From TPA_inf: Saccharomyces (lineage: Eukaryota), in assembly GCA_000146045.2 (NCBI GenBank), contig BK006946.2, positions 160,001 to 224,000 on the forward strand: a stretch of 64,000 bases of DNA. The letters run 5' to 3'. Each line of letters begins with the position of its first letter. The first letter of the stretch is position 1. A model generated the notes under the pieces. It did not search any database. It worked only from the letters and a program-made list of their open reading frames with translations, and had not been told where the DNA came from. This document shows positions 23,898 to 54,188 of this stretch, one piece after another. Made by a program: the position numbers and the translations under genes.

Positions 23898-23968
23898 TGC
23901 GCAAGCCCGGAATCGAACCGGGGGCCCAACGATGGCAACGTTGGATTTTACCACTAAACCACTTGCGC
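23898..23968 (-). tRNA. tG(GCC): tRNA-Gly (GCC), 71 nt, no intron
   Basis: The reverse complement reads GCGCAAGTGGTTTAGTGGTAAAATCCAACGTTGCCATCGTTGGGCCCCCGGTTCGATTCCGGGCTTGCGCA. An A-run on the plus strand at 23887..23895 is the poly-T terminator. Confidence 0.95.
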
Positions 23969-24460: not shown

Positions 24461-25783
24461 ATGGAATCCCAACAATTATCTAATTACCCAAATATATCTC
24501 ATGGTAGCGCCTGTGCTTCGGTTACTTCTAAGGAAGTCCACACAAATCAAGATCCGTTAGACGTTTCAGCTTCCAAAATTCAAGAATATGATAAGGCTTC
24601 CACTAAGGCTAACTCTCAACAGACAACAACACCTGCTTCATCAGCTGTTCCAGAGAACCTCCATCATGCCTCTCCTCAACCTGCTTCAGTACCACCTCCA
24701 CAGAATGGGCCGTACCCACAGCAGTGCATGATGACCCAAAACCAAGCCAATCCATCTGGTTGGTCATTTTACGGACACCCATCTATGATTCCGTATACAC
24801 CTTATCAAATGTCGCCTATGTACTTTCCACCTGGGCCACAATCACAGTTTCCGCAGTATCCATCATCAGTTGGAACGCCTCTGAGCACTCCATCACCTGA
24901 GTCAGGTAATACATTTACTGATTCATCCTCAGCGGACTCTGATATGACATCCACTAAAAAATATGTCAGACCACCACCAATGTTAACCTCACCTAATGAC
25001 TTTCCAAATTGGGTTAAAACATACATCAAATTTTTACAAAACTCGAATCTCGGTGGTATTATTCCGACAGTAAACGGAAAACCCGTACGTCAGATCACTG
25101 ATGATGAACTCACCTTCTTGTATAACACTTTTCAAATATTTGCTCCCTCTCAATTCCTACCTACCTGGGTCAAAGACATCCTATCCGTTGATTATACGGA
25201 TATCATGAAAATTCTTTCCAAAAGTATTGAAAAAATGCAATCTGATACCCAAGAGGCAAACGACATTGTGACCCTGGCAAATTTGCAATATAATGGCAGT
25301 ACACCTGCAGATGCATTTGAAACAAAAGTCACAAACATTATCGACAGACTGAACAATAATGGCATTCATATCAATAACAAGGTCGCATGCCAATTAATTA
25401 TGAGAGGTCTATCTGGCGAATATAAATTTTTACGCTACACACGTCATCGACATCTAAATATGACAGTCGCTGAACTGTTCTTAGATATCCATGCTATTTA
25501 TGAAGAACAACAGGGATCGAGAAACAGCAAACCTAATTACAGGAGAAATCCGAGTGATGAGAAGAATGATTCTCGCAGCTATACGAATACAACCAAACCC
25601 AAAGTTATAGCTCGGAATCCTCAAAAAACAAATAATTCGAAATCGAAAACAGCCAGGGCTCACAATGTATCCACATCTAATAACTCTCCCAGCACGGACA
25701 ACGATTCCATCAGTAAATCAACTACTGAACCGATTCAATTGAACAATAAGCACGACCTTCATCTTAGGCCAGAAACTTACTGA
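24461..25783 (+). CDS. TYA: Ty1 TYA (Gag), 440 aa
   Basis: The ORF starts inside the 5' LTR ([17 protein letters not shown]...). The Gag sequence is typical Ty1. Confidence 0.9.
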
Positions 25784-28700
25784 ATCTACAGTAAATCATA
25801 CTAATCATTCTGATGATGAACTCCCTGGACACCTCCTTCTCGATTCAGGAGCATCACGAACCCTTATAAGATCTGCTCATCACATACACTCAGCATCATC
25901 TAATCCTGACATAAACGTAGTTGATGCTCAAAAAAGAAATATACCAATTAACGCTATTGGTGACCTACAATTTCACTTCCAGGACAACACCAAAACATCA
26001 ATAAAGGTATTGCACACTCCTAACATAGCCTATGACTTACTCAGTTTGAATGAATTGGCTGCAGTAGATATCACAGCATGCTTTACCAAAAACGTCTTAG
26101 AACGGTCTGACGGCACTGTACTTGCACCTATCGTAAAATATGGAGACTTTTACTGGGTATCTAAAAAGTACTTGCTTCCATCAAATATCTCCGTACCCAC
26201 CATCAATAATGTCCATACAAGTGAAAGTACACGCAAATATCCTTATCCTTTCATTCATCGAATGCTTGCACATGCCAATGCACAGACAATTCGATACTCA
26301 CTTAAAAATAACACCATCACGTATTTTAACGAATCAGATGTCGACTGGTCTAGTGCTATTGACTATCAATGTCCTGATTGTTTAATCGGCAAAAGCACCA
26401 AACACAGACATATCAAAGGTTCACGACTAAAATACCAAAATTCATACGAACCCTTTCAATACCTACATACTGACATATTTGGTCCAGTTCACAACCTACC
26501 AAAAAGTGCACCATCCTATTTCATCTCATTTACTGATGAGACAACAAAATTCCGTTGGGTTTATCCATTACACGACCGTCGCGAGGACTCTATCCTCGAT
26601 GTTTTTACTACGATACTAGCTTTTATTAAGAACCAGTTTCAGGCCAGTGTCTTGGTTATACAAATGGACCGTGGTTCTGAGTATACTAACAGAACTCTCC
26701 ATAAATTCCTTGAAAAAAATGGTATAACTCCATGCTATACAACCACAGCGGATTCCCGAGCACATGGAGTCGCTGAACGGCTCAACCGTACCTTATTAGA
26801 TGACTGCCGTACTCAACTGCAATGTAGTGGTTTACCGAACCATTTATGGTTCTCTGCAATCGAATTTTCTACTATTGTGAGAAATTCACTAGCTTCACCT
26901 AAAAGCAAAAAATCTGCAAGACAACATGCTGGCTTGGCAGGACTTGATATCAGTACTTTGTTACCTTTCGGTCAACCTGTTATCGTCAATGATCACAACC
27001 CTAACTCCAAAATACATCCTCGTGGCATCCCAGGCTACGCTCTACATCCGTCTCGAAACTCTTATGGATATATCATCTATCTTCCATCCTTAAAGAAGAC
27101 AGTAGATACAACTAACTATGTTATTCTTCAGGGCAAGGAATCCAGATTAGATCAATTCAATTACGACGCACTCACTTTCGATGAAGACTTAAACCGTTTA
27201 ACTGCTTCATATCAATCGTTCATTGCGTCAAATGAGATCCAACAATCCGATGATCTTAACATAGAATCTGACCATGACTTCCAATCTGACATCGAACTAC
27301 ATCCTGAGCAACCGAGAAATGTCCTTTCAAAAGCTGTGAGTCCAACCGATTCCACACCTCCGTCAACTCATACTGAAGATTCGAAACGTGTTTCTAAAAC
27401 CAATATTCGCGCACCCAGAGAAGTTGACCCCAACATATCTGAATCTAATATTCTTCCATCAAAGAAGAGATCTAGCACCCCCCAAATTTCCAATATCGAG
27501 AGTACCGGTTCGGGTGGTATGCATAAATTAAATGTTCCTTTACTTGCTCCCATGTCCCAATCTAACACACATGAGTCGTCGCACGCCAGTAAATCTAAAG
27601 ATTTCAGACACTCAGACTCGTACAGTGAAAATGAGACTAATCATACAAACGTACCAATATCCAGTACGGGTGGTACCAACAACAAAACTGTTCCGCAGAT
27701 AAGTGACCAAGAGACTGAGAAAAGGATTATACACCGTTCACCTTCAATCGATGCTTCTCCACCGGAAAATAATTCATCGCACAATATTGTTCCTATCAAA
27801 ACGCCAACTACTGTTTCTGAACAGAATACCGAGGAATCTATCATCGCTGATCTCCCACTCCCTGATCTACCTCCAGAATCTCCTACCGAATTCCCTGACC
27901 CATTTAAAGAACTCCCACCGATAAATTCTCATCAAACTAATTCCAGTTTGGGTGGTATTGGTGACTCTAATGCCTATACTACTATCAACAGTAAGAAAAG
28001 ATCATTAGAAGATAATGAAACTGAAATTAAGGTATCACGAGACACATGGAATACTAAGAATATGCGTAGTTTAGAACCTCCGAGATCGAAGAAACGAATT
28101 CACCTGATTGCAGCTGTAAAAGCAGTAAAATCAATCAAACCAATACGGACAACCTTAAGATACGATGAGGCAATCACCTATAATAAAGATATTAAAGAAA
28201 AGGAAAAATATATCGAAGCATACCACAAAGAAGTCAACCAACTATTGAAAATGAATACTTGGGACACTGACAAATATTATGACAGAAAAGAAATAGACCC
28301 TAAAAGAGTAATAAATTCAATGTTTATCTTCAACAGGAAACGTGACGGTACTCATAAAGCTAGATTTGTTGCAAGAGGTGATATTCAGCATCCTGACACT
28401 TACGACTCAGGCATGCAATCCAATACCGTACATCACTATGCATTAATGACATCCCTGTCACTTGCATTAGACAATAACTACTATATTACACAATTAGACA
28501 TATCTTCGGCATATTTGTATGCAGACATCAAAGAAGAATTATACATAAGACCTCCACCACATTTAGGAATGAATGATAAGTTGATACGTTTGAAGAAATC
28601 ACTTTATGGATTGAAACAAAGTGGAGCGAACTGGTACGAAACTATCAAATCATACCTGATAAAACAGTGTGGTATGGAAGAAGTTCGTGGATGGTCATGC

Positions 28701-29729
28701 GTATTTAAGAATAGTCAAGTAACAATTTGCTTATTCGTTGATGATATGATATTGTTCAGCAAAGACTTAAATGCAAATAAGAAAATCATAACAACACTCA
28801 AGAAACAATACGATACAAAGATAATAAATCTGGGTGAAAGTGATAACGAAATTCAGTACGACATACTTGGCTTAGAAATCAAATATCAAAGAGGTAAATA
28901 CATGAAATTAGGTATGGAAAACTCATTAACTGAGAAAATACCCAAATTAAACGTACCTTTGAATCCAAAAGGAAGAAAACTTAGCGCTCCAGGTCAACCA
29001 GGTCTTTATATAGACCAGGATGAACTAGAAATAGATGAAGATGAATACAAAGAGAAGGTACATGAAATGCAAAAGTTGATTGGTCTAGCTTCATATGTTG
29101 GATATAAATTTAGATTTGACTTACTATACTACATCAACACACTTGCTCAACATATACTATTCCCCTCTAGGCAAGTTTTAGACATGACATATGAGTTAAT
29201 ACAATTCATGTGGGACACTAGAGATAAACAACTGATATGGCACAAAAACAAACCTACCGAGCCAGATAATAAACTAGTCGCAATAAGTGATGCTTCATAT
29301 GGTAACCAACCATATTACAAGTCACAAATTGGCAACATATATTTACTTAATGGAAAGGTAATTGGAGGAAAGTCCACCAAGGCTTCATTAACATGTACTT
29401 CAACTACGGAAGCAGAAATACACGCGATAAGTGAATCTGTCCCATTATTAAATAACCTCAGTCACCTTGTGCAAGAACTTAACAAGAAACCAATTACTAA
29501 AGGATTACTAACCGACAGTAAATCTACAATCAGTATAATTATATCCAATAATGAAGAGAAATTTAGAAACAGATTTTTTGGTACTAAAGCAATGAGACTA
29601 AGAGATGAAGTATCAGGAAATCATCTGCACGTATGCTATATCGAAACCAAAAAGAATATTGCAGACGTAATGACCAAACCTCTTCCGATAAAAACATTCA
29701 AACTATTAACAAACAAATGGATTCATTAG
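24461..29729 (+). CDS. TYB: Ty1 TYA-TYB (Gag-Pol) fusion by +1 ribosomal frameshift, 1755 aa: join(24461..25765,25767..29729)
   Basis: Slippery heptamer CTTAGGC at 25763..25769. The Pol frame shows protease DSGAS, an integrase zinc motif H-H...C-C with DDE, RT motif VDDM and RNase H DAS(Y)G. 435 + 1320 codons give 1755 aa. Confidence 0.88.
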
Positions 29730-36627: not shown

Positions 36628-37950
36628 ATGGAATCCCAACAATTATCTCAACATTCACATATTTCTCATGGTAGCGCCTGTGCTTCGGTTACTTCTAAGG
36701 AAGTCCACACAAATCAAGATCCGTTAGACGTTTCAGCTTCCAAAACAGAAGAATGTGAGAAGGCTTCCACTAAGGCTAACTCTCAACAGACAACAACACC
36801 TGCTTCATCAGCTGTTCCAGAGAACCCCCATCATGCCTCTCCTCAACCTGCTTCAGTACCACCTCCACAGAATGGGCCGTACCCACAGCAGTGCATGATG
36901 ACCCAAAACCAAGCCAATCCATCTGGTTGGTCATTTTACGGACACCCATCTATGATTCCGTATACACCTTATCAAATGTCGCCTATGTACTTTCCACCTG
37001 GGCCACAATCACAGTTTCCGCAGTATCCATCATCAGTTGGAACGCCTCTGAGCACTCCATCACCTGAGTCAGGTAATACATTTACTGATTCATCCTCAGC
37101 GGACTCTGATATGACATCCACTAAAAAATATGTCAGACCACCACCAATGTTAACCTCACCTAATGACTTTCCAAATTGGGTTAAAACATACATCAAATTT
37201 TTACAAAACTCGAATCTCGGTGGTATTATTCCGACAGTAAACGGAAAACCCGTACGTCAGATCACTGATGATGAACTCACCTTCTTGTATAACACTTTTC
37301 AAATATTTGCTCCCTCTCAATTCCTACCTACCTGGGTCAAAGACATCCTATCCGTTGATTATACGGATATCATGAAAATTCTTTCCAAAAGTATTGAAAA
37401 AATGCAATCTGATACCCAAGAGGCAAACGACATTGTGACCCTGGCAAATTTGCAATATAATGGCAGTACACCTGCAGATGCATTTGAAACAAAAGTCACA
37501 AACATTATCGACAGACTGAACAATAATGGCATTCATATCAATAACAAGGTCGCATGCCAATTAATTATGAGAGGTCTATCTGGCGAATATAAATTTTTAC
37601 GCTACACACGTCATCGACATCTAAATATGACAGTCGCTGAACTGTTCTTAGATATCCATGCTATTTATGAAGAACAACAGGGATCGAGAAACAGCAAACC
37701 TAATTACAGGAGAAATCTGAGTGATGAGAAGAATGATTCTCGCAGCTATACGAATACAACCAAACCCAAAGTTATAGCTCGGAATCCTCAAAAAACAAAT
37801 AATTCGAAATCGAAAACAGCCAGGGCTCACAATGTATCCACATCTAATAACTCTCCCAGCACGGACAACGATTCCATCAGTAAATCAACTACTGAACCGA
37901 TTCAATTGAACAATAAGCACGACCTTCACCTTAGGCCAGGAACTTACTGA
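36628..37950 (+). CDS. TYA: Ty1 TYA (Gag), 440 aa
   Basis: [17 protein letters not shown]..., the canonical Ty1 Gag N-terminus. Confidence 0.9.
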
Positions 37951-40900
37951 ATCTACGGTAAATCACACTAATCATTCTGATGATGAACTCCCTGGACACC
38001 TCCTTCTCGATTCAGGAGCATCACGAACCCTTATAAGATCTGCTCATCACATACACTCAGCATCATCTAATCCTGACATAAACGTAGTTGATGCTCAAAA
38101 AAGAAATATACCAATTAACGCTATTGGTGACCTACAATTTCACTTCCAGGACAACACCAAAACATCAATAAAGGTATTGCACACTCCTAACATAGCCTAT
38201 GACTTACTCAGTTTGAATGAATTGGCTGCAGTAGATATCACAGCATGCTTTACCAAAAACGTCTTAGAACGATCTGACGGCACTGTACTTGCACCTATCG
38301 TAAAATATGGAGACTTTTACTGGGTATCTAAAAAGTACTTGCTTCCATCAAATATCTCCGTACCCACCATCAATAATGTCCATACAAGTGAAAGTACACG
38401 CAAATATCCTTATCCTTTCATTCATCGAATGCTTGCACATGCCAATGCACAGACAATTCGATACTCACTTAAAAATAACACCATCACGTATTTTAACGAA
38501 TCAGATGTCGACAGGTCTAGTGCTATTGACTATCAATGTCCTGATTGTTTAATCGGCAAAAGCACCAAACACAGACATATCAAAGGTTCACGACTAAAAT
38601 ACCAAAATTCATACGAACCCTTTCAATACCTACATACTGACATATTTGGTCCAGTTCACAACCTACCAAAAAGTGCACCATCCTATTTCATCTCATTTAC
38701 TGATGAGACAACAAAATTCCGTTGGGTTTATCCATTACACGACCGTCGCGAGGACTCTATCCTCGATGTTTTTACTACGATACTAGCTTTTATTAAGAAC
38801 CAGTTTCAGGCCAGTGTCTTGGTTATACAAATGGACCGTGGTTCTGAGTATACTAACAGAACTCTCCATAAATTCCTTGAAAAAAATGGTATAACTCCAT
38901 GCTATACAACCACAGCGGATTCCCGAGCACATGGAGTCGCTGAACGGCTCAACCGTACCTTATTAGATGACTGCCGTACTCAACTGCAATGTAGTGGTTT
39001 ACCGAACCATTTATGGTTCTCTGCAATCGAATTTTCTACTATTGTGAGAAATTCACTAGCTTCACCTAAAAGCAAAAAATCTGCAAGACAACATGCTGGC
39101 TTGGCAGGACTTGATATCAGTACTTTGTTACCTTTCGGTCAACCTGTTATCGTCAATGATCACAACCCTAACTCCAAAATACATCCTCGTGGCATCCCAG
39201 GCTACGCTCTACATCCGTCTCGAAACTCTTATGGATATATCATCTATCTTCCATCCTTAAAGAAGACAGTAGATACAACTAACTATGTTATTCTTCAGGG
39301 CAAGGAATCCAGATTAGATCAATTCAATTACGACGCACTCACTTTCGATGAAGACTTAAACCGTTTAACTGCTTCATATCAATCGTTCATTGCGTCAAAT
39401 GAGATCCAACAATCCGATGATCTTAACATAGAATCTGACCATGACTTCCAATCTGACATCGAACTACATCCTGAGCAACCGAGAAATGTCCTTTCAAAAG
39501 CTGTGAGTCCAACCGATTCCACACCTCCGTCAACTCATACTGAAGATTCGAAACGTGTTTCTAAAACCAATATTCGCGCACCCAGAGAAGTTGACCCCAA
39601 CATATCTGAATCTAATATTCTTCCATCAAAGAAGAGATCTAGCACCCCCCAAATTTCCAATATCGAGAGTACCGGTTCGGGTGGTATGCATAAATTAAAT
39701 GTTCCTTTACTTGCTCCCATGTCCCAATCTAACACACATGAGTCGTCGCACGCCAGTAAATCTAAAGATTTCAGACACTCAGACTCGTACAGTGAAAATG
39801 AGACTAATCATACAAACGTACCAATATCCAGTACGGGTGGTACCAACAACAAAACTGTTCCGCAGATAAGTGACCAAGAGACTGAGAAAAGGATTATACA
39901 CCGTTCACCTTCAATCGATGCTTCTCCACCGGAAAATAATTCATCGCACAATATTGTTCCTATCAAAACGCCAACTACTGTTTCTGAACAGAATACCGAG
40001 GAATCTATCATCGCTGATCTCCCACTCCCTGATCTACCTCCAGAATCTCCTACCGAATTCCCTGACCCATTTAAAGAACTCCCACCGATAAATTCTCATC
40101 AAACTAATTCCAGTTTGGGTGGTATTGGTGACTCTAATGCCTATACTACTATCAACAGTAAGAAAAGATCATTAGAAGATAATGAAACTGAAATTAAGGT
40201 ATCACGAGACACATGGAATACTAAGAATATGCGTAGTTTAGAACCTCCGAGATCGAAGAAACGAATTCACCTGATTGCAGCTGTAAAAGCAGTAAAATCA
40301 ATCAAACCAATACGGACAACCTTACGATACGATGAGGCAATCACCTATAATAAAGATATTAAAGAAAAAGAAAAATATATCGAGGCATACCACAAAGAAG
40401 TCAATCAACTGTTGAAGATGAAAACTTGGGACACTGACGAATATTATGACAGAAAAGAAATAGACCCTAAAAGAGTAATAAACTCAATGTTTATCTTCAA
40501 CAAGAAACGTGACGGTACTCATAAAGCTAGATTTGTTGCAAGAGGTGATATTCAGCATCCTGACACTTACGACTCAGGCATGCAATCCAATACCGTACAT
40601 CACTATGCATTAATGACATCCCTGTCACTTGCATTAGACAATAACTACTATATTACACAATTAGACATATCTTCGGCATATTTGTATGCAGACATCAAAG
40701 AAGAATTATACATAAGACCTCCACCACATTTAGGAATGAATGATAAGTTGATACGTTTGAAGAAATCACTTTATGGATTGAAACAAAGTGGAGCGAACTG
40801 GTACGAAACTATCAAATCATACCTGATAAAACAGTGTGGTATGGAAGAAGTTCGTGGATGGTCATGCGTATTTAAGAATAGTCAAGTAACAATATGTTTA

Positions 40901-41896
40901 TTTGTTGACGACATGATTTTATTCAGCAAAGACTTAAATGCAAATAAGAAAATCATAACAACACTCAAGAAACAATACGATACAAAGATAATAAATCTGG
41001 GTGAAAGTGATAACGAAATTCAGTACGACATACTTGGCTTAGAAATCAAATATCAAAGAGGTAAATACATGAAATTAGGTATGGAAAACTCATTAACTGA
41101 GAAAATACCCAAATTAAACGTACCTTTGAATCCAAAAGGAAGAAAACTTAGCGCTCCAGGTCAACCAGGTCTTTATATAGACCAGGATGAACTAGAAATA
41201 GATGAAGATGAATACAAAGAGAAGGTACATGAAATGCAAAAGTTGATTGGTCTAGCTTCATATGTTGGATATAAATTTAGATTTGACTTACTATACTACA
41301 TCAACACACTTGCTCAACATATACTATTCCCCTCTAGGCAAGTTTTAGACATGACATATGAGTTGATACAATTCATGTGGGACACTAGAGATAAACAACT
41401 GATATGGCACAAAAACAAACCTACCGAGCCAGATAATAAACTAGTCGCAATAAGTGATGCTTCGTATGGCAACCAACCGTATTATAAATCACAAATTGGC
41501 AACATATATTTACTTAATGGAAAGGTAATTGGAGGAAAGTCCACCAAGGCTTCATTAACATGTACTTCAACTACGGAAGCAGAAATACACGCGATAAGTG
41601 AATCTGTCCCATTATTAAATAATCTAAGTTACCTGATACAAGAACTTAACAAGAAACCAATTATTAAAGGCTTACTTACTGATAGTAGATCAACGATCAG
41701 TATAATTAAGTCTACAAATGAAGAGAAATTTAGAAACAGATTTTTTGGCACAAAGGCAATGAGACTTAGAGATGAAGTATCAGGTAATAATTTATACGTA
41801 TACTACATCGAGACCAAGAAGAACATTGCTGATGTGATGACAAAACCTCTTCCGATAAAAACATTTAAACTATTAACTAACAAATGGATTCATTAG
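36628..41896 (+). CDS. TYB: Ty1 TYA-TYB Gag-Pol by +1 frameshift, 1755 aa: join(36628..37932,37934..41896)
   Basis: CTTAGGC heptamer at 37930..37936. The Pol ORF is intact and nearly identical to the Pol of the first element. Confidence 0.88.
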
Positions 41897-46427: not shown

Positions 46428-48860
46428 TCACTTTTCTTCAATGGTTCTCTTGAAATTGGCAAAATGATTAACTAATTCCAGTTCAGTTGATAATGTATCG
46501 TATCTGTAGTTAATTCTAATATCAGGAACATTTGTTCTAACCACATCGTTACCTTCAACACCACTCTTGTCAAAATCTTTCCCTATCCAATGTTTTTTGA
46601 TTTGTGCTTCCCACCCACTTTGCAACACGGAATTTCTTGCCAATTCACACATATCTACATTAGACAATTTATAAATTTGTGCTGCAACTGAGTATTCTTC
46701 GATTAATGGTTCTCTGGTATATGAGAATTGTAAAGGATCATCTGTGGATAGTGAGACATTCAAACCTCTTTTAAAGTATCTCGGAAATGGGTTTTTATCA
46801 TAGGTCAAAAATAATGCGTTATTAGAAAGGGGTGACATTGCGATACCAACCTGATCTAAATAGTATAAGTATTGAACAAATGGAACTTTCCTCAATAAAA
46901 TACCATGTGATATACCATGTGCCAATAGATATGCTGAAACGAGATGCTCGGGGTCACCGGCTTCACCACAATGTGGTCTCAAAACCAAAGTGTTAAACCC
47001 TCTCTTAGCCCTCCATTGATTCAAAGACGCGACATTTGAATACAAATAGTACAGGTAATAGGAATAAGGAGGGTTTTGAGGAGCCTCCCAGAGTGATGGC
47101 TTGGGATATTTCCTATGAAAGCGGCGATCAACCTTGGATTCATCATCGACAGAATCAAACCCAATTACTCTCTGTAAAAATACATGCAATTTTGGATGAG
47201 ACTGAGGATTTTTGGTCACTTCAAATAGTGGCTGAAACAGATTCTTACAGATGTCCTGGAAGCTTTGAACAATGCCAGTTTTCTTGTAAATATCATATAA
47301 CCTCGGAATTTGGACTAACCAACGAACATTATGGGAAATAACTTTGTTGTCAATCACCCAGCTAGCTAGTTTATCCCATTCATCGAGAGACCTGCCATAA
47401 ACAGAAATTCTATACTCACAGTTTTGGTATTTTGAATTCTCTAAATCGAATATGACTTGTTTGGTAATGTCAGCCAAGTAGGTACCCTTGATGTAGTTGT
47501 TTGTCTTCAAAAAAATTTCTCTGAGACGAGATTCACCGATAGGGTTATATTTTAAGTTGAATTTATCGAATCTGTGGAATGTATCCTTATGTGCATGCAT
47601 ATCTAAAGTATCGATGGATAAATCATATCCAGTCAAATGCAAAGAACGGAATACTTCGTCTAAAGTTAGTAGTTTCCCGTCCCTGAAAATAACCTTTTCA
47701 TCTTTGGAATGTCTCAATTTGTGTTTAATGAAACGTAATAAGTGCTTTTGGTTCATACAAGCAGAATGGTGAACGTGAGTGTCCACTTTCCTAACATTAT
47801 AAAAATCCCTGTGTGGGTTTCTTTTGGAAACGCTAGTTTCTTGATATTCGTTCAAGAGATAGTAAAGATTCCAGCGTGCTTCTAGGTATTGCAGCCTTCT
47901 ATAAGCAAATGATTTAGCGGGACCGTCTGATGAGATGGAAATCATTTTTTCTAGATCCAGATAGTAGTCACGAAGGGTAGGGATTTGAGCAATTAACTCA
48001 TCCGTCTTACCTGATCTGTGTACCACGTACGAGTCGTCATCGTTGAGGGTAAATTCCCAATCTGGATCCTCACCAGGAATTTCACATTTCGTAAAATCGA
48101 AAACTTCCGCATCCGGCTTGTTTGTTACTGGCACAACAGTCTTAGTGTCTGAGTTGTATGAAGGTTTAGGTGGTGGTGGATAGACTACCCAGCCTGGCTT
48201 ATTTTTTGGGTTTTGATCATCGTTTTGCACAGATATGGTCTGATATTTGGCTCTCAAATTTCTACACTCTGCCACTTTGGAATACAAGTCAATCAACTCG
48301 GAAGAGGGATCATCAAGAAACTGCTGTGAAGCATCATCAGCCAACATTCCCATTTTATAGGAGGCAGAGGTACGTACCTGCTTATTCACTACCGGAGCGC
48401 CGGCAAATGACTTGAGCGTCTCTGGCAAGATATGCTGAGCACTAGCAGACAAGGTCCTCGGTTTACCCCCGGAATTTTGAGATGCATGGTCTGCCGAGTC
48501 ATGGCCCTTATTCATCGCTGCTATGTTGGAAGAGCTACAATTGGTAGAATGCGATGGTTGCTCCAAGATGGCAGAGTGAGAATCATGCTCATCTAGGGCC
48601 AACTGTTTGGTGCCATTTTCCAACAACTGCTGATTCTCGTGATACGAGAAATTAGCATTCCGAGAATCAGCAGCTAAACTTTCGTGTGAATCTTGCTGCT
48701 CTAAGGGGGGTGTCTCATCATCCACTACGACACCAGCTTGTTCATCACCAATCTTTCTTTGATCTATGTCAATGACTAGTCCTGAACCATCTTGTTCATC
48801 GTGTGAAGGAGCTGGTTCTAGAGAAAGGTCGTTAAGCCTCTGTGTAGCCTGATTGTCCAT
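46428..48860 (-). CDS. AMD1: AMP deaminase, 810 aa
   Basis: 810-aa ORF with the ATG at 48860. Adenosine/AMP deaminase domain (SLSTDDPLQF, HGI...) and a low-complexity N-terminus. Confidence 0.93.
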   Translation of the reverse strand: MDNQATQRLNDLSLEPAPSHDEQDGSGLVIDIDQRKIGDEQAGVVVDDETPPLEQQDSHESLAADSRNANFSYHENQQLLENGTKQLALDEHDSHSAILEQPSHSTNCSSSNIAAMNKGHDSADHASQNSGGKPRTLSASAQHILPETLKSFAGAPVVNKQVRTSASYKMGMLADDASQQFLDDPSSELIDLYSKVAECRNLRAKYQTISVQNDDQNPKNKPGWVVYPPPPKPSYNSDTKTVVPVTNKPDAEVFDFTKCEIPGEDPDWEFTLNDDDSYVVHRSGKTDELIAQIPTLRDYYLDLEKMISISSDGPAKSFAYRRLQYLEARWNLYYLLNEYQETSVSKRNPHRDFYNVRKVDTHVHHSACMNQKHLLRFIKHKLRHSKDEKVIFRDGKLLTLDEVFRSLHLTGYDLSIDTLDMHAHKDTFHRFDKFNLKYNPIGESRLREIFLKTNNYIKGTYLADITKQVIFDLENSKYQNCEYRISVYGRSLDEWDKLASWVIDNKVISHNVRWLVQIPRLYDIYKKTGIVQSFQDICKNLFQPLFEVTKNPQSHPKLHVFLQRVIGFDSVDDESKVDRRFHRKYPKPSLWEAPQNPPYSYYLYYLYSNVASLNQWRAKRGFNTLVLRPHCGEAGDPEHLVSAYLLAHGISHGILLRKVPFVQYLYYLDQVGIAMSPLSNNALFLTYDKNPFPRYFKRGLNVSLSTDDPLQFSYTREPLIEEYSVAAQIYKLSNVDMCELARNSVLQSGWEAQIKKHWIGKDFDKSGVEGNDVVRTNVPDIRINYRYDTLSTELELVNHFANFKRTIEEK

Positions 48861-49524
48861 AATTTTTTTTAGAATGCCCCCTTTTTATTTGTTATATAAT
48901 TTATTAATCTGGCGTACTAGCAGTTCAATCGAGTTTTGCTGAATCAAAATTGGCTATAGCAGGGAGACTATAATAAAAATACTATTAATATCCGATAATT
49001 GACTAGTATACGAGAAACGCTGCTAATTCTGCCTGTAGAGAGAGAGAAGAAAAGTCGTCAAGAGATGCCTTTTTTTTTTTTTTAAAATTTATCTATTTTT
49101 TGATAATATCCTTTAAACCTTGTGCTACTAGAACTCCTTTCTCATCATCGCCAGGCGCAAAAAAAAGATGAAAAAGGAATGAAAAAAGAAAAGAGAAGAC
49201 CCCCACGTGCCCTAAAAATAAAGTTAGGGCATCTATAAAATAACTAGGATATATATATTGATCACCCTGAACGGAAATCAAGGGTTTTAAAGAGCCCTCA
49301 AAATTACTGTTTTAGGAAGCCCCCTTTGTTTTTGTTTTGGTTTCAATTTGTGGTGGCTAATCTGGACATCGATCTACTTGTATAGCTGTCAATATACTAT
49401 GCGGAATACATGGAAGAGAAATAGTCCTCAGTCATTATTAATAGTAGACTGAGACCATACGGAGTGAACGTAGAGGCCAGAACAACAAACAGTAGAACGG
49501 TAGCAGTACTCAGTTAGTGCCGCG

Positions 49525-49870
49525 ATGAATAGTGACTTGGAGTATTTAGAGGACGGTTTTGATCCGAATTCAATGAAAGTTGCGACTTTGAGGAGGATAT
49601 TGGTAGAAAATAATGTCGATTTCCCATCTAATGCTAGGAAAAATGCGCTGGTGGGGCTGTTCGATGAAAAGGTTAAACCGCAGATCCCGCAGTTACGGAA
49701 AATGTATCTGAACGTTCGGCCCAGCGATGAAGGTATTGTGAAAATGGACCGTCCCTCATCTTCCCCATCTATAGCTTCCCCTCGTAGAAGTAGACGAGCT
49801 CGCAGGGAGAAATCTGCTTCCCCCATGGCCAAACAGTTTAAGAAGAATAGAATACTGGATGATGTAAGTA

Positions 49871-49904
<34 letters not shown>

Positions 49905-51444
49905 CAATGATAAAAAAGACGATCCTTTAATTGTACCTAGTGGAACGGATACCGATGAAGTGGACGATGAAGAGGATGATGTGATAACATCAAGCTCCAA
50001 CAAATCAGACACCAATGATTTCCAGCAAAATTCCGATACTCGTAAGAAAAGGAAAGACCCTGATTCTGACGACTGGTCTGAATCTAATTCAAAGGAAAAT
50101 AAAATCGATAATAAGCATTTGAACCTCCTATCATCAGATTCAGAAATTGAACAGGATTACCAGAAGGCAAAAAAGCGTAAGACGAGTGATTTGAACCAAG
50201 AGCATGGAAATGGCTCTGCCATTTTAGGAAAACTTTCCGTCAAAACACCAATAAAGAACACAAATAGAAAGCCAGTAAGCATGGATAATTTTAACGATTC
50301 GTTGACTTCAAGCGGTACGGAAAATGATCCATTTGTACCGAACATACGACACAATCCAAAAGAGCTCGGAACTGCCAATGGAACAGGCCATAGCACACCC
50401 TTGAGTAAGTTAAAAGTTTCTGCCTCATTTGCGGATAAATTGCCTCAAAAGGAGGTACCATCTACAATACTGGTTCCAGAAGTGGAACAGCAAGAACCTT
50501 CTCAGAGTGAAAGAACACCGTCTTTGTTTTCGTCCGAAGGCTCTGGCTCAGAGTCGGAAGCACCCTTGCTTCCAGAGATCACCACGCCAGGTCCTCATCA
50601 GCCTATGGGTAATACCAGCAATAATGTGGTCGAAATGATAGATACAGATAGTAGTAACTTGGTATCGGATGAAGATGAAGTTTTAGTGCCTACAAGGATC
50701 GAGACTCCCCAATTACCCACAGAGAAAGACGTCGAAAAGTGTGAAGCAAGAGTGCAAGAACTTCAAGAGGAAGTAAATGAGCAATTAGAGCATGAAAATG
50801 GGAGTGAATTTGATGTTAAGCAAGGATCTGGGAAGGTCGGGAACAGGCATAAGTTCAAAAGAGCACTCAAATTTTTGAGCAAATCATTACTGGCGCTATT
50901 TTTATTTTGCATATTCATTGTTATTCCTCTCTTATTTGGCCTCTGGTATAGAGAGCAAAGACTGCTCATAGGTTACTGTGGGCATGAAGTACCATCCCAT
51001 CGAGTTAGTGGCAATTCCTTCGAGTTTATTCAAAAACTGGATAATTTGTTGCAGGACTACAGACCGAAATGTATCCCTTGTCCACCCAATGGTATTTGTT
51101 ATCCTTATTTGAAACTTAAATGTAAGCCAGATTACAAGTTAGCACCATCTAGACTTGACTTTTTGGAAATTATTCCTGCACAAGGCAAATGTGTTAAAGA
51201 CGACAAAAAACAGCAGTTAGTTTCCGAAGTGGTTGAAAAATCTTTAGAGTTTCTGAGAGCCAAAAATGCACAAATTTCATGCGGTGACGGAAAAGACGAC
51301 ATCGAGAGTGGTATGACGGAAGATGCCCTCTATCAAATATTTAATGAGGCTAGAGCTCCTTGGATTCGCGACGATGAATTTGAGGACCTGTGGATCCAAG
51401 TTATCAAAGATTTAACTGAAGAACCAGAAATATTATGGAGGCAA
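49525..51444 (+). CDS. SRC1: Inner nuclear membrane HEH/LEM-domain protein, exon 1 (long isoform, codons 1-640)
   Basis: ATG at 49525. N-terminal HeH/LEM-like domain. Overlapping donors: GCAAGT at 51441..51446 and GTGAGT at 51445..51450. Confidence 0.85.
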
Positions 51445-51570
51445 GTGAGTACAATTTATTATCTTACAAAAATTATTAAACCTGTTATTATATGATAACA
51501 GTTTTAATTTTTTTTGAATTTTTTTTTGTTTTTGATTTATTTACTAACATCTTTTCCTAATTTTCTCTAG

Positions 51571-52155
51571 TTATCACCCACTGACAACAACATTGGCGGA
51601 AATTCCAACAACATCATTAAAACCAATGACGTTCCGAGACAGAAGAGACATCTTCCAGAAAAATTCATCTCCAAGACGAGGAATTTTCGGTCGACGTCCA
51701 AGAAATACATTGGAATGAAGTGTCGATTTGAAAGAGAAATCTACCAAACGTATAAAAAATTTCAAAGGCCAATATGGCTAATGTTTTTACTGATAGTCAT
51801 TAGTAAAGTAATCGAGATCAAGCTGAAGAATTATTATAGAAAGAAGGCAAGAATTGAAGAACTCGTTACTCAAACCATGGAAAAATTGAAATTCCAAAAG
51901 ATTAAATCAATGTCCGATCCGAAAGAAAACGCGTATTTGAGCATAGTTCAATTGCGTGACATCTTTCTTTCTGATATTGTCGATCTGAAATACAAAAATC
52001 AATTATGGTCAGAAGTGGTAAAATATTTAGAGCATAATAACAGTAATATTAAATCGAACTTAACTGAAATTCGAGGTGAAATAATGAAATGTTGGGAATG
52101 GATAGGTCCGATGGAACTCAATGAACCTAAGGATTCCGCTGAAAACAAAATATAA
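51571..52155 (+). CDS. SRC1: SRC1 exon 2 (long isoform, 194 codons plus stop; total 834 aa)
   Basis: TACTAAC at 51542..51548. Acceptor AG at 51569..51570. Downstream-donor splicing keeps the frame into the MKCRFEREIYQ... segment, giving 834 aa. Upstream-donor splicing shifts the frame, stops at 51716..51718 and gives 687 aa. Confidence 0.85.
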   Translation, partial: LSPTDNNIGGNSNNIIKTNDVPRQKRHLPEKFISKTRNFRSTSKKYIGMKCRFEREIYQTYKKFQRPIWLMFLLIVISKVIEIKLKNYYRKKARIEELVTQTMEKLKFQKIKSMSDPKENAYLSIVQLRDIFLSDIVDLKYKNQLWSEVVKYLEHNNSNIKSNLTEIRGEIMKCWEWIGPMELNEPKDSAENKI

Positions 52156-52514: not shown

Positions 52515-53930
52515 TCAAGTAGGCTTGCGTGCATGCAGGGGATTGATCTTTGGTCTTCCAACTTCTCTTCGTGTCGATCTTTGTTGCGGAACGGCTGGCA
52601 CTGCACCATTTCCATTAGGATGTACTACCTTAGAAGGCGGCGCAAACCGTGGAGCAGCTGCAGGCGGAAAAGCTGTAGCGTTCGTTTTAATTGGTGTGGT
52701 TTCACGCGGTACTTGATTCCCAGCCCCTTCTAGCATATGAGGCCCCAGTTCTTTATCATTGTTCTTCATGCTCAATTGTTTTCCCTTTGGTGCAAATTTT
52801 TCATAGACAGAATCCCTCGCGGTGGTCATCGTTTTGTCTTTTAGCACACTCGCTGGAATATGCTTGGACGTAGTCTGATCAACGGTGTGCCTAATGGATT
52901 GTGCCTGGTATTTGGGATCAAAAATGCTCTCTTCACCAATATAACGTTCATTTTGTACGGAAGTTGCAGCCTTAGCTGTAACAAAGGTGATTTGTTCTGC
53001 CTCTGGGTTTGAGCTAGCAGTTGGGCTTTGCTTAGCTACAACGGGATCCTTCTCTGTCGTTAAAACATTACTGTTTGTGTTGCCCATATTTATCAAGTCG
53101 TCGTCTTGAAAATCATCGCTAAACATAAGAGAATCATCGAGAAGGTCATCTTGATCCTGTTTGGAAGCATCGAGAGATTTGAGATCAGTATCTTTATTAC
53201 TGCTGTTTTTACTGTTAGCCTCAGCAGGTGCGGCCATCATTGGGGTACCTCGACTTACTGTATTTTCTATTTTCACCAGGTTCTTCGTCGAGTCGGGATT
53301 GGTATTTGTAACTTTAGTCAATTGCCTTCTTTTATTCGGGTATTGTTGTTGTTCTTGATTTTCATGCAAAGTATTCGTTCTTGAGCTTTCGCTGATTTCA
53401 TCCGTTGGCCTAAACAAATTGTTTTCGTCAAAATCTGGCGGATCGAACTTCACCTTATCGATCTTTGCCAGAAAATCTTTATCGTAAAGACAATTTCCTA
53501 GAGCATTACCAAACCCTCTCAAAGATCTTTTCAAGGCATCCGTAACGGCAGATTTCTTGGCCCTTTCGAAAGCGGCAGGTTTCCGTCTTTCGTTCTCCAC
53601 GGTACCATACCCAATATCTTCCCTATAAGTCCCGCTAGTCAACGTAACACGAACAATTGCAGTACACCCTATGCTAAACTTTCCCTGTCGCTCATCCAAA
53701 AAATCGATAACTACACTTTTTACCTCCGTAGACCAGCCATTATATCCAAAGATTTGATTAGCAAGATTAATTACTCTCCAACCTTCGATGTATGCAATCC
53801 TGCTTGTTCCAAACCCAACTCTCTTGGAGATATACTCAGGTCCTAATTTCTTGTCCAATTTGGTCTGTATGTCCTCGGAATGGTTACCGAAAACGGGCTT
53901 CTTCTCATCCATATCCATAATTTCATTCAT
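52515..53930 (-). CDS. RAD52: Rad52 recombination mediator, 471 aa from the third in-frame ATG
   Basis: The ORF extends to 54029 (504 aa). The conserved Rad52 N-terminal domain is present (GWRVINLANQIFGYNGWSTEV...). I place the start at 53930 because I recall a 471-aa annotation, and that recollection is uncertain. Confidence 0.85.
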   Translation of the reverse strand: MNEIMDMDEKKPVFGNHSEDIQTKLDKKLGPEYISKRVGFGTSRIAYIEGWRVINLANQIFGYNGWSTEVKSVVIDFLDERQGKFSIGCTAIVRVTLTSGTYREDIGYGTVENERRKPAAFERAKKSAVTDALKRSLRGFGNALGNCLYDKDFLAKIDKVKFDPPDFDENNLFRPTDEISESSRTNTLHENQEQQQYPNKRRQLTKVTNTNPDSTKNLVKIENTVSRGTPMMAAPAEANSKNSSNKDTDLKSLDASKQDQDDLLDDSLMFSDDFQDDDLINMGNTNSNVLTTEKDPVVAKQSPTASSNPEAEQITFVTAKAATSVQNERYIGEESIFDPKYQAQSIRHTVDQTTSKHIPASVLKDKTMTTARDSVYEKFAPKGKQLSMKNNDKELGPHMLEGAGNQVPRETTPIKTNATAFPPAAAPRFAPPSKVVHPNGNGAVPAVPQQRSTRREVGRPKINPLHARKPT

Positions 53931-54188
53931 CAACAACACACCAAAGCCACCAGAACCTTCAGCAGTTCTTGGCAACCTCCTTGTTTGCATTTGTTGATTC
54001 TCAGTGGCAAAATAGCTTAAAAACGCCATTCGATACCGGTCGCGTAACCCGCCCGCCGCTATATTTTTCGTCTTTTCTTAACAGACTAAAGAATATAATA
54101 ACATCGAGAATCACTAACGGGAAGAGCAGACTCTTTGGCGATGAGTAAGTGTGATTGAGAAGACGAAAGGACATTACAGGGCAAGCAG

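What the first reader, a model, noticed from the sequence alone, without database searches (positions are those of the whole stretch)
51436..51575. SRC1 has two overlapping alternative 5' splice sites 4 nt apart, giving 834-aa and 687-aa isoforms
The sequence GCAAGTGAGT at 51441..51450 holds two donors. Splicing at the downstream GTGAGT to the acceptor at 51570/51571 keeps the frame through the C-terminal exon to 52155 (640 + 194 codons = 834 aa). Splicing at the upstream GCAAGT shifts the frame and stops at 51716..51718 (687 aa), which removes the C-terminal membrane-proximal segment. Both products are computed directly from the sequence.
Basis: partly seen in the sequence, partly recalled or inferred. 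Interest (0 to 1): 0.6.

Follow-up and report, generated by a model that had tools for sequence, protein, structure and literature searches.

The report
Known SRC1/HEH1 overlapping splice donors

Summary
GCAAGTGAGT lies at 51441..51450. Splicing from GTGAGT (exon 1 ends at 51444) to the acceptor AG at 51569/51570 gives 834 aa. Splicing from GCAAGT (exon 1 ends at 51440) shifts the frame and stops at TGA 51716..51718, giving 687 aa. The gene is Saccharomyces cerevisiae SRC1/HEH1 (100% identical to Src1p), lying between AMD1 and RAD52.

Grund 2008 reported the 834-aa and 687-aa forms and the 126-nt and 130-nt introns. Kawashima 2014 found both junctions by RT-PCR and RNA-seq, neither degraded by NMD. 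Banyal 2025 worked out the mechanism.

- The donor pair, branch point and acceptor are invariant in five other Saccharomyces loci.
- Two intron-less contigs from a relative carry exactly the two predicted junctions with the same acceptor.
- In the 148-nt stretch read in both frames, substitutions follow the short-isoform frame.

One correction. The short form does not lose a "membrane-proximal segment". It loses the second membrane span and the C-terminal half of the MSC domain, and it gains 49 unique, conserved residues.

Novelty: already known. Interest: low.

The parts
49525..51440 (+). SRC1/HEH1 exon 1 common to both isoforms (residues 1-638 plus 2 nt). It encodes the HeH/LEM domain (aa 14-48, nt 49564..49668) and the first membrane span M1 (aa ~450-474, nt 50872..50946).
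   Evidence: ORF and translation; Pfam HeH E=6.7e-16, MSC E=7e-111; Kyte-Doolittle peak at 445-478; 100% identical to S. cerevisiae Src1p.
51437..51452 (+). 16-nt exon/intron boundary segment GGAGGCAAGTGAGTAC (gene nt 1913-1928). Published mutagenesis shows it is required for alternative donor choice.
   Evidence: coordinates and sequence; PMC12830679 mutagenesis; it lies inside the block 51434..51454 that is invariant in 6 Saccharomyces loci.
51441..51446 (+). Upstream non-canonical GC donor GCAAGT (cut between 51440 and 51441). It gives a 130-nt intron and the 687-aa short isoform.
   Evidence: contig L006 has the junction ...TGGAG|TTATCACC. (literature).
51445..51450 (+). Downstream donor GTGAGT (cut between 51444 and 51445). 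It gives a 126-nt intron and the 834-aa long isoform.
   Evidence: contig L007 has the junction ...TGGAGGCAA|TTATCACC. (literature).
51445..51570 (+). Intron (126 nt; 130 nt when cut from 51441). It is T-rich and diverges quickly between species outside the splice signals.
51542..51548 (+). Branch-point consensus TACTAAC, with the branch A at 51547, 23 nt upstream of the intron's last base.
   Evidence: Invariant in all 6 loci.
51568..51570 (+). Shared 3' splice site TAG. It holds the only AG between the branch point and exon 2.
   Evidence: Both contigs L006 and L007 join to the orthologous position.
51571..52155 (+). Exon 2 in the long-isoform frame (194 codons plus TAA 52153..52155). It encodes the end of the lumenal domain, the second membrane span M2 (aa 708-725, nt 51772..51825) and the C-terminal half of the MSC domain.
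   Evidence: MSC matches profile positions 1-337 of 337 in L but only 1-182 in S; hydropathy peak at 703-728, present in L only..
51571..51718 (+). Stretch read in two frames. In the +1 frame it encodes the short-isoform-specific tail (residues 639-687, 49 unique aa) and ends at TGA 51716..51718.
   Evidence: variable sites by L-frame codon position are 21/13/7 here and 31/24/103 downstream; the S-frame tail is 86% identical pairwise against 72% for the L frame. Fisher p=3e-8; deleting these residues abolishes the Heh1-S function assayed.

Best explanation
The locus is Saccharomyces cerevisiae SRC1/HEH1 (YML034W), which encodes a LEM2/MAN1-type inner nuclear membrane protein. Its single intron has two partly overlapping, non-consensus 5' splice sites, /GCAA/GTGAGT, that compete for one branch point and one acceptor.

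- Cutting at GTGAGT keeps the frame and gives Src1-L/Heh1-L (834 aa). It has two membrane spans, and both termini are nucleoplasmic. It carries a complete MSC domain, which binds the ESCRT protein Chm7.
- Cutting 4 nt upstream at GCAAGT shifts exon 2 into the +1 frame and gives Src1-S/Heh1-S (687 aa). It has one membrane span and a 49-residue unique tail in the perinuclear lumen.

According to the published work, the choice is not made at U1 recognition. [quoted passage not shown] Use of the weak GC site needs Hub1-Snu66, Prp8 (the prp8-101 surface), Ecm2, Urn1 and the RES complex.

The upstream donor must be GC. A GT there would create a TAA stop in the long-isoform frame.

Basis of each step:
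- Shown here: the anatomy, both products, conservation, both junctions in a relative, and selection on the S frame.
- Taken from the literature: expression of both proteins, topology, the trans-acting factors, and the role of Heh1-S in restraining Chm7 recruitment.
For: Sequence arithmetic.

Identity: 100% identical to Src1p of S. cerevisiae; 99.8-99.9% nucleotide identity to two S. cerevisiae assemblies; flanked by AMP deaminase and Rad52 as in S. kudriavzevii and S. uvarum.

Domains: HeH plus a full MSC domain in L, and only MSC profile positions 1-182 of 337 in S. The second hydrophobic span is present only in L.

Conservation: GCAAGTGAGT, TACTAAC and the acceptor are invariant in 5 other Saccharomyces loci. 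Exon 1 is always 2 mod 3 at the GC donor, and the S frame always ends ...RNTLE*.

Transcripts: intron-less contigs L006 and L007 from a S. uvarum-clade relative show the two junctions and encode 707-aa and 862-aa products.

Selection: codon-position periodicity of substitutions switches to the S frame in 51571..51718.

C51442T would give TAA in the L frame, matching PMC12830679.

Literature: PMC2528585, PMC3983031, PMC7491326, PMC12830679, bioRxiv 10.1101/2020.06.25.171694.
Against: Nothing found contradicts it. There are four limits.
- No RNA data for this exact strain could be examined here.
- The library type of the runs behind L006 and L007 (SRR23107898, SRR23107907) is inferred from precise intron absence, not verified.
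- The exact 687-aa S. cerevisiae sequence is not in the protein collection, because annotation pipelines record only the long form.
- The U5/U6 mechanism and the Chm7-related function rest on the cited papers, not on tests made here.
Confidence: 0.97

Rival explanations
1. The upstream GCAAGT is a chance overlap. Only GTGAGT is used, and the 687-aa product is a computational artefact.
For: The 10-mer alone is not improbable: 0.10 occurrences are expected per window and 10 of 100 shuffles contain one. GC donors are rare and far from the yeast GTATGT consensus.
Against: Both proteins were detected by tagging each stop codon (PMC2528585). RT-PCR and RNA-seq show both junctions at about 60/40 S/L (PMC3983031). 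Contig L006 from a relative uses the GC donor. The S-frame tail is conserved, and substitutions follow the S frame.
Confidence: 0.01
2. The GC-donor product is real RNA but non-functional splicing noise: a frame-shifted transcript with a premature stop, cleared by NMD.
For: Many alternative splice events in S. cerevisiae are non-productive NMD substrates (PMC3983031). The S stop lies 437 nt upstream of the L stop.
Against: The SRC1-S level is unchanged in upf1-delta. Across the 6 loci the S tail is 86% identical pairwise against 72% for the overlapping L frame. Variable sites are concentrated at S-frame third positions, 21/13/7 against 31/24/103 downstream, Fisher p=3e-8. Every indel there is a multiple of 3, and the stop position is conserved. 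Deleting the 49 unique residues abolishes suppression of the HEH1-L chm7-OPEN defect.
Confidence: 0.02
3. A third product from intron retention matters in this species: a 656-aa protein ending inside the intron at 51493..51495.
For: The unspliced ORF is open for 16 codons into the intron. [quoted passage not shown] Gene callers on relatives report such read-through ORFs.
Against: The read-through tails are not conserved in length or sequence among the Saccharomyces loci (687, 658 and 662 aa ORFs with unrelated ends). The intron diverges quickly. No paper read here reports such a protein in S. cerevisiae.
Confidence: 0.03

Closest known systems
S. cerevisiae SRC1/HEH1 (YML034W) alternative 5' splice sites /GCAA/GUGAGU (Rodriguez-Navarro 2002; Grund 2008; Mishra 2011; Banyal 2025)
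   Same: Everything matches: sequence, coordinates within the gene (16-nt segment at nt 1913-1928), 126/130-nt introns, 834/687-aa products and chromosomal neighbours.
   Different: Nothing of substance. The window is a strain variant, 100% identical at protein level to strain P283 and 99.8-99.9% identical at DNA level to two assemblies.
Tandem donors 4 nt apart (GYNNGY-type overlapping 5' splice sites) in animals and plants
   Same: GCAAGT fits GYNNGY. The two donors are 4 nt apart, share one acceptor, and cause a frame shift. PMC12830679 draws the same parallel.
   Different: In S. cerevisiae this is one of very few productive alternative splicing events. Both sites are non-consensus, and use of the upstream one requires Hub1-Snu66.
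LEM2/MAN1 family of inner nuclear membrane proteins, including the paralogue HEH2
   Same: HeH/LEM domain, two membrane spans and an MSC domain.
   Different: HEH2 has no intron (PMC7491326). The dual-topology short isoform made by a 4-nt donor shift is reported for the SRC1/HEH2 lineage of budding yeasts.

Membership tests
S. cerevisiae SRC1/HEH1 gene | Protein sequence identical or nearly identical to Src1p | tested here: met
   100% identity over 834 aa to Src1p [S. cerevisiae P283]; its 90%-identity cluster contains the S288C Src1p.
S. cerevisiae SRC1/HEH1 gene | Chromosomal context AMD1 - SRC1 - RAD52 | tested here: met
   an 810-aa ORF at 46428..48860 (-) and a 504-aa ORF at 52515..54029 (-). 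The orthologous loci have AMP_deaminase and Rad52_Rad22 genes in the same positions.
Yeast spliceosomal intron | 5' splice site, TACTAAC branch point and YAG acceptor at the usual distances | tested here: met
   donors at 51441 and 51445, TACTAAC at 51542..51548, and TAG ending at 51570, 23 nt after the branch A. All are conserved in 6 loci.
Overlapping alternative 5' splice sites (4 nt apart) | Both junction classes exist in RNA and share one acceptor | tested here: met
   In an orthologue: contigs L006 (GC donor) and L007 (GT donor). In S. cerevisiae itself, from the literature only: RT-PCR and RNA-seq in PMC3983031.
Overlapping alternative 5' splice sites (4 nt apart) | Both products are translated and functional | tested here: inconclusive
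   Comparative evidence here supports selection on the S frame. Protein detection and genetics come from the literature only.
Hub1-dependent alternative splicing | Use of the upstream site depends on Hub1 binding to Snu66 and on U5/U6 pairing | not testable with these tools
   Taken from PMC12830679 and PMC3983031 (3-fold drop of SRC1-S in hub1-delta).
LEM2/MAN1 family | N-terminal HeH/LEM domain, two membrane spans and an MSC domain | tested here: met
   PF12949 E=6.7e-16; PF09402 E=7.3e-111, covering profile positions 1-337 of 337; hydrophobic peaks at 445-478 and 703-728.

The most novel reading that the evidence does not exclude
In the 148-nt stretch read in both frames (51571..51718), purifying selection acts mainly on the short-isoform frame, and the long-isoform frame behaves like a tolerant linker. 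This would mean the 49-residue lumenal tail of Heh1-S (core ...KPMTFRDRRDIFQKN...RRGIFGRRPRNTLE) is a specific binding motif for a still unidentified partner in the perinuclear lumen, through which Heh1-S restrains Chm7 recruitment by Heh1-L. Conservation and functional need of the tail are already published (Capella et al. 2020). Only the frame-dominance argument and the lumenal-partner inference go a little further.
Probability: 0.4. Interest if true: 0.3.

Novelty: already known. Interest (0 to 1): 0.08.

Why it matters
SRC1/HEH1 is a standard model for productive alternative splicing in budding yeast, and for how a spliceosome chooses between overlapping donors. The two isoforms have different membrane topology, and they tune ESCRT recruitment at the nuclear envelope. 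For this scan, the result matters mainly as validation. A reader working from raw sequence alone recovered a real, experimentally established event with exact coordinates. It adds no new biology.

Tried and rejected
The exact sequence is not in the protein collection, because annotators record only the long form.
- P0005, a 687-aa hit, looked like an annotated short isoform. It is an unspliced read-through ORF of a related species that has the same length by coincidence; its tail ...LLAITH is unrelated. The true predicted S form at that locus is 690 aa.
- Chance occurrence of the 10-mer was tested. The motif alone is not significant, so the argument rests on context and conservation.
- Davis et al. 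2000 (PMC102823), cited by Grund et al. for the alternatively spliced SRC1 intron, is not held in the library.
- One translation was made in the wrong frame and is not used.
- The homologue search returned only 8 Saccharomyces sequences. Deeper conservation (Saccharomycotina, Aspergillus) is therefore cited from PMC7491326 and was not re-derived.

Full report
**1. The observation**

The sequence GCAAGTGAGT is at 51441..51450, as stated. An ORF starts at ATG 49525.

- Ending exon 1 at 51444 (donor GTGAGT, 51445..51450) gives 1920 nt, or 640 codons. Joining it to 51571 keeps the frame through 194 further codons to TAA 52153..52155, for 834 aa.
- Ending exon 1 at 51440 (donor GCAAGT, 51441..51446) gives 1916 nt. 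Exon 2 is then read in the +1 frame and stops at TGA 51716..51718, for 687 aa.
- The two introns are 126 and 130 nt.
- A perfect TACTAAC branch-point box lies at 51542..51548, with the branch A 23 nt from the end of the intron.
- The AG at 51569..51570 is the only AG between the branch point and exon 2, so no other acceptor competes.
- Without splicing, the ORF ends inside the intron after 656 aa.

The 10-mer alone is not statistically unusual. It occurs once, 0.10 occurrences are expected, and 10 of 100 shuffles contain one. The case rests on its context and its conservation.

**2. Identity of the locus**

- The 834-aa product is 100% identical to Src1p of Saccharomyces cerevisiae, and its cluster includes the S288C protein.
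- The DNA is 99.8-99.9% identical to two S. cerevisiae assemblies.
- The neighbours are an 810-aa ORF upstream on the minus strand and a 504-aa ORF downstream on the minus strand. At the orthologous loci of S. kudriavzevii, S. uvarum and three unnamed relatives these positions hold an AMP deaminase gene and a Rad52 gene.
- Pfam finds a HeH/LEM domain (aa 14-48) and a full Man1-Src1p C-terminal (MSC) domain (aa 463-820, profile positions 1-337 of 337) in the long form. The short form keeps only profile positions 1-182.
- Kyte-Doolittle analysis shows a strong hydrophobic span at about 445-478 in both forms. A second span at about 703-728 is present only in the long form, and the short-specific tail is not hydrophobic.

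*(a) Conservation.* In five other Saccharomyces loci (L001-L005), GCAAGTGAGT, TACTAAC and the acceptor are all present. Exon 1 is always 2 mod 3 at the GC donor. The +1 frame always runs 49-50 codons and ends ...RNTLE*. The block 51434..51454, which contains both donors, is invariant, while the rest of the intron diverges quickly and varies from 115 to 131 nt.

*(b) Transcripts.* Two short intron-less contigs were assembled from public sequencing runs of a relative about 90% identical to S. uvarum.
- L006 reads ...ATATGGAG|TTATCACC..., which is the GC donor, and encodes a 707-aa protein with the S-type tail.
- L007 reads ...ATATGGAGGCAA|TTATCACC..., which is the GT donor, and encodes an 862-aa L-type protein.

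Both junction classes therefore exist, and they share one acceptor. That these contigs are transcripts is inferred from the precise absence of the intron; I could not check the library type.

*(c) Selection.* In the stretch read in both frames (51571..51718), variable alignment columns number 21, 13 and 7 at long-frame codon positions 1, 2 and 3. Long-frame position 1 is short-frame position 3. In the rest of exon 2 the counts are 31, 24 and 103, the normal third-position excess (Fisher p=3e-8). Mean pairwise amino-acid identity in this stretch is 86% in the short frame and 72% in the long frame. The short-isoform tail is thus under purifying selection, which argues against splicing noise.

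**4. What is published**

- Grund et al. 2008 (PMC2528585) describe two alternative 5' splice sites, 126-nt and 130-nt introns, and Src1-L of 834 aa and Src1-S of 687 aa. Both proteins were detected at similar levels by tagging at each stop codon. [quoted passage not shown] Src1-S spans it once, with its C-terminus in the perinuclear space. M2 is residues 708-725 and is absent from Src1-S.
- Kawashima et al. 2014 (PMC3983031) confirmed both junctions by RT-PCR and RNA-seq, at about 60/40 S/L. The ratio is unchanged in upf1-delta, and SRC1-S falls 3-fold in hub1-delta.
- Hurtig et al. 2020 (PMC7491326) show that the GUgaGU/GcAaGU pair is present in all Saccharomycetaceae. They also show that alternative splicing of SRC1/HEH2 orthologues is ancient.
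- Capella et al. 2020 (bioRxiv 10.1101/2020.06.25.171694) show that Chm7 binds the MSC domain found only in Heh1-L, that the two isoforms heterodimerise through the shared lumenal domain, and that the 49 unique, conserved residues of Heh1-S are needed to restrain Chm7 recruitment.
- Banyal et al. 2025 (PMC12830679) show that a 16-nt segment (gene nt 1913-1928, window 51437..51452, GGAGGCAAGTGAGTAC) is required. Donor choice tracks pairing with U5 and U6 snRNAs rather than U1. Hub1-Snu66, Prp8, Ecm2, Urn1 and RES proteins support the weak GC site. A GU at the upstream site would create a stop codon in the long frame. I checked the last point directly: C51442T turns ...AGG CAA into AGG TAA.

**5. 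Mechanism**

Two weak, overlapping donors compete for one branch point and one acceptor. The 4-nt offset moves exon 2 between two frames, both of which are open and both under selection. The result is a two-span protein with a nucleoplasmic ESCRT-binding MSC domain, and a one-span protein with a lumenal tail that modulates it.

- Shown here: the anatomy, the products, conservation, junctions in a relative, and S-frame selection.
- Taken from the literature: protein expression, topology, trans-acting factors, timing within the spliceosome cycle, and cellular function.

**6.

The short form does not just remove a "C-terminal membrane-proximal segment". It loses long-form residues 639-834. These comprise the end of the lumenal domain, membrane span M2 and the nucleoplasmic half of the MSC domain. 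They are replaced by 49 different residues, which changes the membrane topology.

**7. Rivals**

- A chance overlap with only one donor used is excluded by the published data and by L006.
- Non-functional noise cleared by NMD is excluded by the upf1-delta result and by the S-frame selection signal.
- An intron-retention product (656 aa) cannot be excluded by sequence. However, its tail is not conserved among the relatives, and none of the papers read here reports it for this species.

**8. Verdict**

The feature is already known in detail, so interest is low. It is still a good validation of the first-stage reading.

Noticed in passing
window 49871..49904: A perfect (GAT)11 microsatellite inside SRC1 exon 1 encodes a poly-Asp run. 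Src1p variants of 829-836 aa in the S. cerevisiae cluster suggest length polymorphism, possibly at this run.
   Followed up: partly
window 24461..29729 and 36628..41896: There are two near-identical ORF pairs, each of 440 aa followed by 1239 aa on the + strand, about 12 kb apart. This layout is what two Ty1-type retrotransposons (gag/pol) would look like. A tRNA-Gly(GCC) lies at 23898..23968 (-), just upstream of the first pair.
   Followed up: no
window 49428..50015 (-): A 195-aa antisense ORF, rich in Ser and Leu, overlaps the 5' part of SRC1. It is most likely a by-product of the acidic, low-complexity coding strand and not a gene.
   Followed up: no
L003 2001..4064: In one relative the unspliced SRC1 ORF reads through the entire intron and was called as a 687-aa protein (P0005). 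It has the same length as the S. cerevisiae short isoform by coincidence but an unrelated tail. This is a trap for annotation by length.
   Followed up: yes
L009 (S. cerevisiae GCA_000568295.1), intron: The SRC1 intron is 1 nt shorter in this strain (125/129 nt against 126/130). The splice signals and both products are unchanged.
   Followed up: partly
window 52515..54029 (-): The RAD52 ORF is open for 504 aa from its first ATG. One S. cerevisiae assembly annotates 504 residues and another 471, so annotators chose different start codons.
   Followed up: no
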